From positions 1 through 64,000 of the forward strand of contig CAZAPM010000002.1 in the NCBI GenBank assembly GCA_964487475.1: a DNA stretch of 64,000 bases, given 5' to 3'. Origin of the DNA: an uncultured Planctomycetales bacterium. GTDB taxonomy: Bacteria > Omnitrophota > Gorgyraeia > Gygaellales > Profunditerraquicolaceae. Made by a program: the position numbers. This document shows positions 24,001 to 30,000 of the stretch, one piece after another. Position 1 is the first letter of the stretch. Each line of letters starts with the position of its first letter.

Positions 24001-27000
24001 ATCTGGCCGCCGGTCATCCCGTATACCGCATTATTGATGAAGATCACCGTCAGGTTCTCCCCGCGGTTCGCGGCGTGCAGCGTCTCGGCGGTGCCGATCG
24101 CCGCCAGATCCCCGTCCCCCTGATAGGTGAACACGCACTGCTCGCGGCGAAGGCGTTTGAGCGCGGTCGCCACTGCCAGCGCACGGCCGTGCGCGGCTTC
24201 CACGCAATCGAAATCCCAGTAATTATACGCGATCACGGCGCACCCCACCGGAGCAACCCCGATCGTCTTCTCCCGCAGCCCCAGGCTGTCGATCGCTTCC
24301 GCCACCAGGCGGTGCGCCACGCCATGTCCGCACCCGGGGCAGTAATGCGTCGCGGTATCGCGCAACGCGTCGGGACGCCTGAACCCTGCGGCGCTCATCG
24401 TTGCCTCGCTTCCTTAAGTATGGCCTTGAGGATATCCTCCTCCGTGAGGATCCCTCCGCCGCCTCGCCCGACAAAACCGACCGGGGCTTTCCCGTCGACG
24501 GCAAGACGCACGTCCTCGACCATCTGGCCGTACGACATCTCTGCCGCGAGAAAACGCATCCGGCGGCGTGAAAGACACAGCCGCTGCAAGGCCTTTTCGG
24601 GGAAAGGCCAGAGCGTCACCGGACGCAGCAGCCCCGCCCTGATCCCTTTTTCCCTGGCCCTTTTCACCGCGGCTTTCGCGATACGGGCCATGGTGCCGTA
24701 CGCGACGACGCAGATCCGGCAGTCGGCAAGGAGGTACTCCTCGTGCCGCGCCTCCCGCGCGCGTATCCGCGCATATTTCTTCTGCAGGGCCAGATTGAGC
24801 TTTTCCAGCGCCCCCTCTTCCAGGCGGAAGGAACGGACGATCCGCGCCTCCCTGCCCCGGCACCCTCCGACACCCCAGGGGTGGGAGGAAATTTCCGGAG
24901 GGACGTTGGCGCGTACCGCATCGCGCGGCATCAAAGAGACCGGCTCCATCACCTGGCCGAGCATCCCGTCCAGAAGCAGCATCACCGGAACGCGGTATTT
25001 TTCTCCGAGCGAGAACGCCGGGCGCACCAGGTCATACGCTTCCTGCGCCGAGGCCGGCGCCAGCACGATCACCCGGTAATCCCCGTGCCCCCCGCCTTTC
25101 ACGGCCTGAAAATAATCCGACTGTGCGGGCGCGATGTTGCCCAGTCCCGGCCCGCCGCGCATCACATTGACGATCAGCGCCGGAAGCTCGGCTCCCGCCA
25201 GGTACGATATCCCTTCCTGCTTGAGGCTGATCCCCGGGCTGGAAGAGGAGGTCATGGCCCGGGCGCCGGTCGCCGCCGCGCCGAAGACCATATTGATCGC
25301 GGCCAGCTCCGATTCCGCCTGGATGAACACGCCTCCCTGCACGGGTAGATGCTCCGCCATGTACGCGATCAGCTCATTCTGAGGCGTGATGGGATATCCG
25401 GCGTAAAGCGCACAGCCGCTGTCGATCGCGCCCTGCGCGATAGCCTCGTTACCGCTTATAAGTACCGGTTCACTTTTCCTGGTCATGGCGTGATCTCGAT
25501 CGCGCATTCCGGACAGACCTGCACGCACTGTCCGCATCCGATGCAGACGTACTCCGCGCCGACCTGTACCGGCTTGAACCCTTTATCGTTAAGCTTCCTG
25601 CCTTCGGAAAACACGGCCTTCGGGCAGAACCGGATGCACAAGAGGCATCCCTTGCATTTAGAAGTATTAAGTTTTACTTTTGCCATGTGTCTTGCATATC
25701 GTATCCGCGATGCCTGCGGCGGTCAACCCGTATTTTTCCAGCAATATCTCCCGGCTCCCGCAGGGGATGAACTCATCCGGAAGTCCCAGGGCGGTCACCG
25801 GGACTTTCAGCGCCTCCTGCACTGCGCTGCCGAATCCGCCCTGCAGCATCCCGTCCTCAACGGTATACACCTGCGGGACCTTAAGGGCGAGTTGTTTGAA
25901 CAACTGCTCGTCCAGCGGCTTGGCAAAGCGCGCGTTGACCACGGTCCCGGCCAAACCCTGCGCCGCCAGCTGCTGCGCGGCTTCCAGCGCCGGCGCCACC
26001 ATGCTTCCCAGCGCGATGAGCAGGAATGCGTTCCCCTGGCAGAGCACTTCCGCTTTCCCCCGGACGACCGGCGCCATGGGCAGCGATATCTGGGGCACCG
26101 CCGCTTTCGGATAGCGCAGAGAAGTGATCCCCTGGTAAGACACCGCGAAATCCATCATCGCCTCAAGCTCTTTTCCGTCACGGGGAGCCATGACGGTCAA
26201 TCCCGGGACGGTGCGCAGGAACGCGATATCGAACACTCCCTGGTGTGTCGCGCCATCCTCGCCCACCAGGCCGGAGCGGTCCAGACAGAACACCACCGGG
26301 ACTTCCTGCAACGCCACGCACTCGATGATCTGATCGTATGCCCGCTGCAGGAAAGTGGAGTAGATCGCCACTACCGGCCGTAACCCCTGTTTCGCCAGCC
26401 CTCCGGCAAAACTTACCGCGTGCTCCTCGGCAATTCCCACGTCATAGAAACGGTCGGGATACGCGTCGCGGAACTTGTCCAATCCCGTGCCTTCGGGCAT
26501 GGCCGCGGTAATGGCCACGATATCCTTGCGCTGCGCCCCCAGCTCCAGCATCTTCTGGCTGAACACGCCGGTATACGAAACCGCTGCGGCAGGACCTTTC
26601 TTCAGGGAGGCGCCGGTCGCGATATCGAAAGGCGCGGCGCTGTGAAAACGCACCGGGTCCTTTTCCGCGGGATAATACCCTTTCCCCTTCTTGGTCACGA
26701 CGTGCAGCAGCACGGGCCCTTTGAGCGGCAGGAGATTCCTTAAGGTAGAGATGAGCACCTGCAGGTTATGCCCCTCGAACGGCCCGAAATAACGGAACCC
26801 CAGCTCCTCGAAAAGCATCCCCGGCACGAAAAGACCTTTCAGGTGCTCCTCGAGCTTATTGGCCATGGCCACCAGCCTGCGGCCGCGGGGAATGCGGGAA
26901 GACACGAACCCGTCGAAATTCTGTTTGAACTTGTTGTAGATGGGCAGCGAGATGATCTTGTTCAGGGACGTGCTCAGCGCCCCGACGTTAGGGGCGATGG

Positions 27001-30000
27001 AATGCTCGTTGGTATTAAGCACCACCAGCAGGTCCTTCTTGAGATGGCCGGCGTTATTGAGCCCTTCGAAACACAAGCCTCCGCTGATGGACCCGTCCCC
27101 GATGACGGCGACCGCTTTCGCCCCTTTGAGATCGTCCTTCAGCGCGTTGGCGCAGGCCAGCCCCAGGGCCAGGGAGACCGCCGTAGAGCTATGCCCGGTA
27201 GTGAAGCTGTCGTACGCCGATTCGTCCTTGCAGGGAAAACCGGTGATACCCTGATACTGGCGCAGACAGGAGAATTTATCGCACCTGCCGGTCAGCAGCT
27301 TATGGGCGTAGGCCTGGTGGCCGACGTCCCAGACGATCCTGTCCCTCGGCAGGTCCAGGCAATAGTGCAGCGCCAGGGTCAACTCCACCGTACCCAGGCT
27401 GGAAGCCAGATGCCCGCCGGTCTTGGAGACCACCTCGATCATGCGCTGGCGAAGCTCGAAAGAAAGCAGCACCAGCTGTTCGATCGAGAGTTTCTTCAGA
27501 TCCTGCGGGCTCTGGATATTCTCTAGTATCATGCCGTTTCTCCGCGACCTTTACGAAGCATCGCCTTCTGCAAAAGGCTCGAGTTCGAATTCGCCCTTCT
27601 TGTTCTTGGTCAAGGTATCGATCTTCTTCTTTGCCCCCTCAAGCCGCTGATTGCACATGCGGGAGAGCTCAACGCCTTCCTGGTATTTTTTGAGGGCCTC
27701 GTCCAGCGTCAGGTCCCCTTTTTCCAGGTCCTCGACGATCTTTTCCAGTTTTTTCAACGCATCCTCAAACTTCATCTCCGCCATGGGATTCAACCTCCTT
27801 GACTTCGCTGACGATCGCTCCGCGATGCACCCGGGTCCGCAGCCGCTGCCCTGGGCGTACCTCTCCTGCATCCTTCAGGATACCCCCGGTATCCTCGCGG
27901 AACGTAATGCTGTACCCGCGGGACAGGATCGCCAGCGGGCTCAAATTCCCCAGTTTTTCCGCGGCTTTCACGAAGACCGCCTGCCGCAACGCCAGAAAAT
28001 GCGACATCCGGCCGGCTGCCAGCTCGGCCAGCGCGGCGAGTTTTTCCTGATATCGCATGATCGCCGCCGAAGGATTGAGCAGGTGCAGCTTTTTTCCGGC
28101 CTCCGACACCTCCCGGGCGCTTAGCTCCCACACGTGTGACACGCCCATCTGCAAACGGTGCCGCAGATCATCCAGTCCCACCTGCGCGCGAGACGCCTGC
28201 TGCAGCAGCGCCTGGGAGAGCCCCTGCAACAGCGCTTCCAGGGAACTTTTAAGCTCCTCCCGCAGCGGCAGGACCAGCTCCGCAGCCACCGAGGGCGTCG
28301 CAGCGCGCACATCCGCGACCAGGTCGGCAATGGTCACGTCCCGCTCGTGCCCGACGGCCGAGATCACCGGGATCGAGGATGCGTAGATGGCCCGGGCCAC
28401 TATCTCTTCGTTAAAGGCCCAGAGGTCCTCGATGCTGCCGCCGCCGCGCCCCACGATCAGCACTTCCATACGCTCTCCCGGGGTCACGGAATCATTGTAT
28501 TCGTTGCACTCGCGTATCGCCTGCGCGATCTCTTCCTTCGCCCCCTCCCCCTGCACCCTCGCCGGGCAGACGATGATATGCACGTCTTTAAACCTGCGGT
28601 CGATAACTTTCAGGATATCCTTGATCGCCGCGCCCGTCGGAGAAGTCACGATCCCGATGCGCGCCGGCAAAGGTGGCAGCGGACGCTTATGCGCCGGGGA
28701 GAAAAGGCCTTCCTTCTCCAGCTTCTTCATCAGCTGCTCTTTGGCCAGCTGCAGCGCGCCGATCCCCTTGGGCTCGATGCTCTCGACGATCAGCTGGTAC
28801 TTGCCGTGGGGAGGATACACTTCCACCGCCCCGGCACAGACCACTTTCAGGCCGTCCTCGAGCCTGAACTTGACTTCCCTCGCCGACCGGCTGAACAGCG
28901 CCGCCGGCAGCACCGCCTGTTCGTCCTTGAGAGAAAAATACACGTGTCCGGCGGATGACGGCCGGAGATTCGAGATCTCCCCTTCCACGTACACATGCGG
29001 AAAACTGCTCTCCAGCACTCCTTTGATGGAAAGGGTCAGCTCCCCGACCGTGAATACGTGCCGGGCGCCCGATTCGGGCGCAGGATCAAAAAGTCCGGGA
29101 AGATCCTCTTTAACGTGTTTCATCGGGCGCGTTGGTCTCGGTGACATTCTCCGCAGCCGGGGCATCGGCCCGGGGCGCTTCCGCCGGCTTTTCCGCTGCC
29201 GGCTCGGCCACCGCAGGCGCCGCGACCGGAGCCGGAGGAAGCTTTTTGAACAGCAGCAGCTCGACGGAATACGGCTCCACGGAAACGGTCTCGGTCCATC
29301 CCTGCGCGACTTCGATAGTCTTGGTCTCTGCCGCGGGCGTTTCACACGTGCCGGCGCAGCGGCTGTCTACGGTAACCCGCTCCACCTCATACGAACCGGC
29401 GGAAAGTTTTTTCAGCTCCAGGCGCACCGTACGGGGTGACGCCAGGGCCGATGCGGAAGATTTGCGCAGCGCAATGGCCTTCTTCAGCGTTTCCTTCACC
29501 CGGCCCGACGCGGCGATCTTGGCCAGAGGCACTCTTTCTTCCAGCACTTCGTTGAAGCGCTTGGTCCGGATCAGCGTCAGCATCTGATGCCGCTCCTTCT
29601 CGGAAAAAGCCCCGATCGCCCTGGTCACGTAATTGTTCACGATATCCGGATCGATGTAATTACTGATCAGCGCGGCATAGGAGTCTTCGCCCTTGGTCAC
29701 CAGTACCCGGACGAACTCATCCTCCGCCTGCAGCGAAGCCGGATAGAGCAAAGGCTTGAGCCTCTCGAGCATGCGCATGACCGCATACCCCGCTTTCGGG
29801 ACGGGAGGCTTCGTGACATCGGGAGAGAAACGGAACAACCCGACGTTGCGTACCACCCCTTCATCCGGGGCCTGAAAATCCTCGAGCGCGAAATAGACCG
29901 CCTGATCGATCCCGGCTTTATGCATGAAGGAAAGCCGCGCGGGGATGTAGCTGGCTGCCACCTGCGCCTTCTCCCCCCGGCCCGGGGAATTGTTCGCTCC

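What a model noticed while it worked through the whole genome (the two positions that open the first line are those of the whole stretch)
25483..27532. No NAD kinase; anabolic reductases carry NADH-type fingerprints
nadK is deleted from its place between dxs and the 2-oxoacid oxidoreductase genes, and no NAD kinase of either Omnitrophota type is present, although de novo NAD synthesis and full amino-acid, fatty-acid and isoprenoid synthesis are kept. FabG, IlvC, AroE and ProC have an acidic residue at the end of the second Rossmann strand, the NAD(H) fingerprint. This order has shifted biosynthesis towards NADH and must get any NADP by an unknown route.
Evidence so far: NAD_kinase_C 0 of 121 order genomes, strong hits in 6 of 81 class genomes (159); N domain 0 in own (25). 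In 9 of 10 fetched NADK loci the gene directly follows dxs, in 4 of them before the vor genes; here dxs (g00240) overlaps the next gene g00239 (169, 207). Profiles of both canonical and divergent Omnitrophota NADK find nothing in six frames (169, 187); either type in 23 of 121 class genomes, 0 of 5 of this family (188). Own motifs: FabG ISDVN, IlvC ISEM, AroE IFDVD, ProC AFDKD (174). Acidic type in NADK-negative genomes: FabG 13 of 14, IlvC 12 of 15, AroE 13 of 15; in NADK-positive ones 9 of 15, 6 of 13, 7 of 13 (180); the exceptions are mostly from two families whose other members have t [...]
(Added by a program. Inside this text positions count along the whole contig: contig position 1 is position 1 of the stretch shown here. 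"Call 12" and the like, gene names such as g00115 and contig names such as C1 are that model's own, and its searches are not shown. The text may have been shortened before it was handed on; [...] marks where a part breaks off. The agent that wrote the report below was given it as the finding of a first reader that could run no searches.)

Follow-up and report, generated by a model that had tools for sequence, protein, structure and literature searches.

The report
Bacterial lineage lacking NAD kinase
These uncultured Omnitrophota bacteria carry the genes to make NAD but no recognisable NAD kinase, the only known enzyme for making NADP; many of their biosynthetic enzymes are predicted to run on NADH instead, yet several still look NADP-specific, so they likely get a small NADP supply by an unknown route.

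Summary
The absence is real and wider than reported. No NAD kinase was found in this genome, in 0 of 201 order genomes, or in 199 of 251 class genomes, including a one-contig genome. A control gene was found in 175 of the same 201. dxs overlaps the next gene, at the spot where 13 of 13 canonical nadK loci place nadK. The NAD-type motifs in FabG, IlvC, AroE and ProC are real. But they are not special to this order: relatives that keep canonical nadK share them (IlvC 5 of 6, AroE 10 of 11, FolD 8 of 8), so the shift likely came before the loss. NADP-type sites persist in NADK-less genomes: NfnB YRR 13 of 13, and the isocitrate dehydrogenase Lys-Tyr motif in 146 of 201. Best reading (0.5): low NADP demand, met by a non-homologous or side-activity kinase. 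I did not find that enzyme; the only order-core candidate (PF04008) is missing from many other NADK-less genomes. Cofactor use is inferred from motifs only. My paper searches and scan look-ups found no earlier report; the closest known case is Chlamydia trachomatis.

The parts
25667..27532 (-). dxs, 1-deoxy-D-xylulose-5-phosphate synthase; nadK follows this gene in relatives that keep it
   Evidence: TIGR00204 770 bits
25667..25686 (-). 20-nt overlap of the dxs end with the ferredoxin start: the junction where canonical nadK lies in relatives
   Evidence: sequence; 13 of 13 canonical loci are dxs-nadK
25483..25686 (-). 4Fe-4S ferredoxin, likely the delta subunit of the 2-oxoacid oxidoreductase
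   Evidence: Fer4 Pfam hits; OGOR_delta hit below its cut-off
24395..25486 (-). 2-oxoacid:ferredoxin oxidoreductase alpha subunit (VorB family)
   Evidence: NF005507 512 bits
23667..24398 (-). 2-oxoacid:ferredoxin oxidoreductase beta subunit
   Evidence: hits below cut-offs
23112..23663 (-). 2-oxoacid:ferredoxin oxidoreductase gamma subunit
   Evidence: hits below cut-offs
21811..23115 (-). gltX, glutamate-tRNA ligase (downstream context)
   Evidence: TIGR00464 (66)
27551..27784 (-). xseB (upstream context)
   Evidence: TIGR01280 (66); gene call

Best explanation
This order, like most of its class, has no recognisable NAD kinase, and likely keeps a small NADP pool made by an unrecognised, non-homologous or side-activity kinase. 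Shown: nadK is missing from its ancestral place after dxs, no NADK-family gene is detected, and the de novo NAD genes are kept. Inferred step 1: in anaerobic ancestors that still had nadK, bulk reductases (FabG, IlvC, AroE, ProC, FolD, Hom, PanE, GltD) took NAD-type sites, which cut the demand for NADP. Inferred step 2: nadK then became dispensable and was lost. Inferred step 3: a few enzymes (NfnAB, isocitrate dehydrogenase, TrxB, Gmd, QueF) still cycle NADP(H), with NfnAB and IDH reducing it. NADP is recycled, so new synthesis only has to double the pool once per generation, and a very slow activity would suffice. The enzyme is not identified.
For: Absence with controls. The one-contig genome G234 and the two-contig genome G008 are negative.

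NAD-type state in NADK-less, canonical-carrier and NADK2-type genomes:
- IlvC acidic loop: 25 of 28; 4 of 5 (plus G261); 1 of 13 (where only 46 of 76 matching genomes were listed).
- AroE Asp/Glu: 35 of 36; 10 of 11; 4 of 11 (79).
- FolD GHS: 38 of 41; 8 of 8; 10 of 16 (68).

NADP-type sites kept:
- NfnB in 12 of 14 NADK-less genomes, YRR in 13 of 13 including own, nfnA adjacent in 11 of 12 loci, and 4 of 5 more genomes by pattern.
- IDH HG[ST]APKY in 146 of 201 genomes with control 0 (46), although the two nearest solved IDHs carry HGSAPDI.
- Own TrxB HRR, Gmd IVRR, TyrA GVCRH and an aldehyde dehydrogenase with KPSS.

Three NADK-less genomes (G207, G222, G210; 92-98% complete) have the NADPH-type IlvC loop (60). 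Motif meaning comes from passages in PMC7596348 (YRR), PMC8623467 (Lys344/Tyr345/Tyr391) and PMC5940873 (KARI loop). With assumed numbers (0.1 mM pool, 1-5 uM enzyme, 1-30 day doubling), the turnover needed is about 5e-6 to 8e-4 per second.
Against: No candidate enzyme fits all NADK-less genomes. PF04008 is order-core but absent from 21 of 35 NADK-less class genomes, including one-contig G234, and present in 4 of 32 NADK carriers. The zeta-toxin and DAGK searches gave nothing specific. YRR invariance is only modest evidence, since 27.6% of NfnB columns and 12 of 27 Arg columns are invariant in the same 13 sequences. The TrxB pattern hit 3 of 5 genomes with 2 control hits. All cofactor calls are motif-based. 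The order of events rests on shared states, not on a species tree; the NfnB gene tree mixes the groups.
Confidence: 0.5

Rival explanations
1. NADP(H) is taken from host or prey cells through an unrecognised transporter, as is assumed for Chlamydia trachomatis.
For: The own genome has giant ORFs up to 16,838 aa and Tad-type genes. PMC10066038 (passages) links such traits to predation or parasitism. PMC3136453 (passages) assumes NAD(P) import for NADK-less C. trachomatis.
Against: De novo NAD synthesis is kept. No TLC/NTT translocase in 0 of 5 genomes, though that search had no positive control. PMC10066038 reports the translocase only in Aquiviventia, Omnitrophia and one Gorgyraia species. The loss spans dozens of families, whose lifestyles probably differ.
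Confidence: 0.17
2. These cells live without NADP. The remaining NADP-type motifs bind NAD(H) weakly or with inorganic phosphate in place of the 2'-phosphate (recalled precedent: human MTHFD2), and NfnAB acts as a ferredoxin:NAD valve.
For: Many reductases look NAD-type. No PntB. No Zwf, Gnd, malic enzyme or GdhA by motif. A second TrxB-like protein lacks HRR and GltD is of the NADH type. G204 and G207 have no NfnB match.
Against: NfnAB only makes sense with two separate pools, and it is kept in 12 of 14 NADK-less genomes with YRR. IDH keeps Lys-Tyr in 146 of 201 although Asp-Ile is the state of its nearest solved relatives. Three NADK-less genomes have an NADPH-type IlvC loop.
Confidence: 0.15
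3. A third NADK-family member, too divergent for the profiles, is present and missed.
For: The NADK2-type scores below or near the Pfam C-domain cut-off: PF20143 finds 25 of 251 class genomes against 52 for A1. The Pfam model misses the Thermus and Deinococcus controls.
Against: Each type's profile finds the other at 35-87 bits, while the best own ORF scores 9.6. The only ORFs with a GGDG-like motif are PFKs with intact fructose-6-phosphate residues. The C-terminal NADK motif regex finds no credible ORF (72).
Confidence: 0.12
4. The absence is an assembly or binning artefact.
For: These are MAGs; 11 of 87 conserved proteins lack a good hit in the own genome.
Against: 0 of 201 against 175 of 201 for a control gene. 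The dxs junction is closed by a 20-nt overlap. One- and two-contig genomes are negative.
Confidence: 0.02

Closest known systems
Chlamydia trachomatis, the one NADK-less species named in PMC4518329 and PMC3136453 (passages read)
   Same: No NAD kinase gene; the NADP source is unknown.
   Different: C. trachomatis is an intracellular parasite with no NAD synthesis. These genomes keep nadA, nadX, nadC, nadD and nadE and broad biosynthesis, carry NfnAB, and the loss spans about 80% of a class sample.
NADH-preferring ketol-acid reductoisomerases (PMC5940873, passages, citing Brinkmann-Chen 2014)
   Same: An acidic residue in the beta2-alphaB loop where NADPH-type enzymes have Arg (60, 76).
   Different: Known cases are single enzymes. 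Here the same kind of change is seen across FabG, AroE, ProC, FolD, Hom and PanE, and no kinetics exist.
NfnAB electron-bifurcating transhydrogenase (Thermotoga maritima NfnB Y310-R311-R312, PMC7596348)
   Same: nfnA-nfnB gene pair, TIGR01316 above cut-off, YRR motif.
   Different: It is kept in genomes with no known way to make its NADP substrate.
Mitochondrial NADK2-like kinases
   Same: The divergent NADK of 34 class genomes has human NADK2 as its best solved match.
   Different: It is absent from this order. In the loci read it lies near HAD, mutY or hemE genes, not after dxs.

Membership tests
NAD kinase (canonical ATP-NAD kinase) | N-domain with GGDGT plus C-domain (PF01513 + PF20143) | tested here: not met
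   Own genome. Order: 7, 16.
NAD kinase (NADK2-like type) | Match to profile A1 of 12 class members | tested here: not met
   0 of 201 order genomes; positive control in the class (18).
Zeta-toxin-like P-loop NAD kinase (plant NADKc type; recalled) | Full-length PF06414 match in a small kinase | tested here: inconclusive
   Own hits cover only the Walker A region and are below the cut-off; no unexplained small P-loop kinase by eye.
Chlamydia-type NAD(P) import | TLC/NTT nucleotide translocase | tested here: inconclusive
   0 of 5 genomes, no positive control.
Chlamydia-type NAD(P) import | Loss of NAD biosynthesis | tested here: not met
   nadA, nadC, nadX, nadD, nadE and pncB present.
NADH-preferring KARI | Acidic residue at the phosphate-binding position of the beta2-alphaB loop | tested here: met
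   Own SEMPG; 25 of 28 NADK-less genomes listed; alignment to Arg-type solved KARIs.
NADH-preferring KARI | Measured kcat/Km preference for NADH | not testable with these tools
   Needs an enzyme assay.
NfnAB | nfnA next to nfnB; YRR NADP-binding motif | tested here: met
NADP-type isocitrate dehydrogenase | Residues equivalent to E. coli Lys344, Tyr345 and Tyr391 | tested here: met
   Own HGSAPKY and TYD; 146 of 201 order genomes; residue roles from PMC8623467. The Tyr391 equivalence was read by eye.
NADP-free metabolism | Loss or remodelling of all NADP-specific enzymes | tested here: not met
   NfnB, IDH, TrxB and Gmd keep NADP-type motifs.

The most novel reading that the evidence does not exclude
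Most of a bacterial class of prototrophic anaerobes makes NADP with a second, non-homologous kind of NAD kinase, or has done away with NADP altogether. Within this order, the orphan phospho-histidine, adenosine-binding protein PF04008 is a testable candidate.
Probability: 0.4. Interest if true: 0.9.

Novelty: new variant of a known kind. Interest (0 to 1): 0.72.

Why it matters
NAD kinase is described as the sole enzyme that makes NADP de novo. One review finds it in 96% of bacterial genera with finished genomes and names C. trachomatis as the only exception (PMC4518329). Here hundreds of genomes with full biosynthesis lack it. Either an unknown NADP-forming enzyme or transporter exists, or life can run without NADP. 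Both are directly testable with recombinant enzymes and with nadK complementation in E. coli. The lineage also offers a natural set of predicted NADH-dependent FabG, IlvC, AroE, FolD, PanE and Hom enzymes, of the kind sought for anaerobic bioproduction.

Tried and rejected
Candidates for a replacement kinase:
- Zeta_toxin: only generic P-loop hits.
- DAGK_cat: 0 in own, below cut-off in 3 of 4 others.
- TLC: 0 of 5, no control.
- The two PFKs: ordinary members of TIGR02482 and TIGR02483, also present in NADK-positive G261.
- DUF1846 (C12:23759; recognised by eye): the family is the CTP synthase PyrJ, and it lies beside pyrG.
- A PHP-family protein shared with G204 but not G261: not followed up.
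- PF04008: kept only as a weak lead.

Phyletic comparison with G261 (1.42 Mb fetched) and G204 (0.54 Mb of about 1.4 Mb) gave 53 genes and no obvious kinase. It is weak because G204 is partial and G261 lacks core genes such as uvrC and mutS.

Other checks: PntB 0 of 5 (83). Dxr is ambiguous (GGMRE, with a basic residue kept). Asd and GpsA look the same in own and G261 (34), so they do not discriminate. The NfnB tree mixes paralogues and cannot count the losses. The genes after dxs in NADK-less relatives could not be read, so that junction is shown for the own genome only.

Paper searches for an earlier report found nothing relevant, nor did scan look-ups.
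Full report
1. Locus. The window holds, on the minus strand, xseA, xseB, dxs (25667..27532), a 67-aa ferredoxin (25483..25686), vor alpha, beta and gamma, and gltX. dxs and the ferredoxin overlap by 20 nt (72). In all 13 canonical nadK loci fetched from the class, nadK directly follows dxs; in 11 the vor alpha gene comes next, in the other two gltX or tyrS. 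Loss of nadK from this place is therefore a sound inference. Omnitrophota is supported by source names for a same-family PFK and for members of the own acyl carrier protein's cluster (86).

2. Absence. In the own genome (94.6% complete), PF20143 finds nothing and PF01513 finds two phosphofructokinases and one broken match. I built HMMs from 13 canonical and 12 divergent class NADKs. Against 19,556 six-frame ORFs the best score is 9.6 bits, while each profile finds the other type at 35-87 bits and finds nadK in G261. In the order, profile A1 finds 0 of 201 genomes, and 0 of the 112 high-quality ones. PF01513 gives weak hits in 81 of 201, nearly all at model positions about 60-104; 9 of the 10 loci read are PFK and one was not read. 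A control family is found in 175 of the same 201. In the class, A1 matches 52 of 251: 34 strong divergent-type, 15 canonical-like or partial, 1 fragment and 2 noise-level. So 199 have no match, as do 150 of 189 high-quality genomes, and whole families are negative (f13 0/11, f16 0/10, f24 0/11, f38 0/10). One-contig G234 and two-contig G008 are negative. The divergent type's best solved match is human NADK2. The own genome alone is weak evidence, since 11 of 87 conserved proteins lack a good hit in it.

3. NAD-type motifs. The four quoted motifs are there. FabG sits in the plsX-fabH-fabD-fabG-acpP-fabF cluster, read by eye apart from FabG itself. I also see NAD-leaning sites in FolD (GHSE...CHIG against GRSN...HSKT or GASN...HRFT in solved FolDs), Hom (ICDKD), PanE (LLDKR), GltD (IEV) and HldD. 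Reading these as NAD-type is recalled knowledge, except for KARI (PMC5940873, passages). G261, with canonical nadK, has ICDID, VSDLK, IQDIK, VSDVN, GHSK...CHIA and LCDKD. Counts on an 80-genome panel were read by eye from pattern matches, given as NADK-less / canonical carriers / NADK2-type carriers. IlvC acidic loop: 25 of 28 / 4 of 5 / 1 of 13, with 11 Gln-Arg and 1 Glu-Arg in the last group; only 46 of 76 matching genomes were listed, and G008 has both types. AroE Asp/Glu: 35 of 36 / 10 of 11 / 4 of 11; 2 rows were cut too early and 7 genomes had only noise matches. FolD GHS: 38 of 41 / 8 of 8 / 10 of 16; GRS in only 3 of 65. Kin are not independent. The pattern says the NADH-leaning state is shared with canonical-nadK carriers and so likely predates the loss. 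NADPH-type IlvC and AroE go with the NADK2-type kinase.

4. NADP-type sites kept. NfnB matches in 12 of 14 NADK-less, 8 of 8 canonical and 5 of 8 NADK2-type genomes (3 of these 5 above the cut-off). YRR is kept in all 12 plus the own protein, with nfnA adjacent in 11 of 12 loci, and in 4 of 5 further genomes including G234. YRR holds the NADP phosphate in T. maritima NfnB and marks NADP use in DsrL (PMC7596348, abstract and passages). As a baseline, 27.6% of columns and 12 of 27 Arg columns are invariant, so this is modest evidence on its own. The IDH motif HG[ST]APKY is in 146 of 201 order genomes, 92 of 112 high-quality ones, with control 0. Lys344, Tyr345 and Tyr391 are among the NADP-binding residues of E. 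coli IDH (PMC8623467, passage), and the two nearest solved relatives carry HGSAPDI. I did not determine what the other 55 genomes have. The own TrxB (HRR), Gmd, TyrA (GVCRH), an aldehyde dehydrogenase (KPSS), two further SDRs and QueF also look NADP-type. The TrxB pattern in relatives was weak: 3 of 5, with 2 control hits. G207, G222 and G210 lack NADK yet have the NADPH-type IlvC loop.

5. Search for the missing route. Zeta-toxin-like, DAGK and translocase models gave nothing specific. Comparing own genes with G261 (nearly whole) and 0.54 Mb of G204 gave no obvious kinase. DUF1846 is a CTP synthase (bioRxiv 10.1101/2024.09.24.614635, passages). The 'adenosine-specific kinase' PF04008 (C6:94195) is order-core: 175 of 201, and 104 of 112 high-quality genomes. 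On the panel it is in 12 of 13 order genomes, 14 of 35 NADK-less class genomes, 2 of 13 canonical and 2 of 19 NADK2-type carriers. The family forms a phospho-histidine and binds adenosine or AMP; the T. maritima member showed no activity on adenosine, AMP, ADP or ATP, and a Thermus member was reported to cleave ADP (PMC10248530, passages). It is worth an assay but cannot be the general answer, since G234, G201 and G203 lack it.

6. Mechanism. The most likely picture (0.5) is low demand plus a trickle supply. Bulk reduction likely runs on NADH from glycolysis, ferredoxin, Rnf and [FeFe] hydrogenases (genes seen). A small NADP(H) pool, reduced by NfnAB and IDH, would serve thioredoxin reductase and a few others. 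With assumed values (0.1 mM pool, 1-5 uM enzyme, 1-30 day doubling), the turnover needed is about 5e-6 to 8e-4 per second, within reach of a side activity. The rivals are import from hosts (0.17), NADP-free life (0.15), a hyper-divergent NADK (0.12) and artefact (0.02).

7. What is known. PMC4518329 (passages) calls NADK the sole de novo source of NADP, gives 96% of bacterial genera, and names only C. trachomatis as lacking it; PMC3136453 (passages) agrees. PMC10066038 (passages) reports complete NAD synthesis in Omnitrophota, and its main text has no 'NADPH'. I did not open its supplements, which hold pathway tables and could show the missing kinase. Searches for 'Omnitrophota' with 'NAD kinase' and two wider searches returned no paper, and a fourth listed none on this. 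The library lacks most subscription journals.

8. Verdict. It is a new variant of a known kind, since NADK loss is known in Chlamydia, but here it occurs in prototrophs that keep NADP-type enzymes. Interest 0.72.

Noticed in passing
genome C12:23759-25282 (-), outside the window: A DUF1846 protein (recognised by eye), likely the CTP synthase PyrJ, sits directly between pyrG and carA, so both CTP synthases are side by side.
   Followed up: partly
genome C6:94195-94680 (-): The orphan 'adenosine-specific kinase' (PF04008) behaves as a core gene of this order (175 of 201) and is rare in NADK carriers (4 of 32).
   Followed up: yes
L027-L038: The NADK2-like kinase of other class members lies next to HAD, chelatase-like and mutY genes or next to hemE, not after dxs. 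Its carriers mostly have NADPH-type IlvC and AroE.
   Followed up: partly
G008 C2:108885 and C2:297790: A NADK-less, two-contig genome has two IlvC copies, one with an acidic loop and one with an Arg loop (60).
   Followed up: no
genome C1:45691-46713 (L041): Asd has a shortened glycine-rich loop (VGAGVVG), also seen in G261 (VGVGAVG), whereas G204 has the usual GATG and LASSRS.
   Followed up: no
L202, L203, L205: NfnB-like paralogues in NADK2-type genomes replace YRR with FRR, CEG or HDS and have altered nfnA partners.
   Followed up: no
genome C15:3-50516, C5:95872-124134, C16:26951-50365: Giant ORFs of 16,838, 9,421 and 7,804 aa, the kind described for Omnitrophota.
   Followed up: no
window 27551..27784 to 25667..27532: xseB is followed directly by dxs, with no ispA between them, unlike the common xseB-ispA-dxs order (recalled).
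   Followed up: no
window 29110..30951 (-): A secreted-looking 613-aa protein with a GH39 match lies between ymdB and xseA.
   Followed up: no
genome C1:21195-24708: A second fatty-acid or polyketide-type cluster with two ketosynthases and an NADPH-leaning FabG-like SDR (GGTRG).
   Followed up: no
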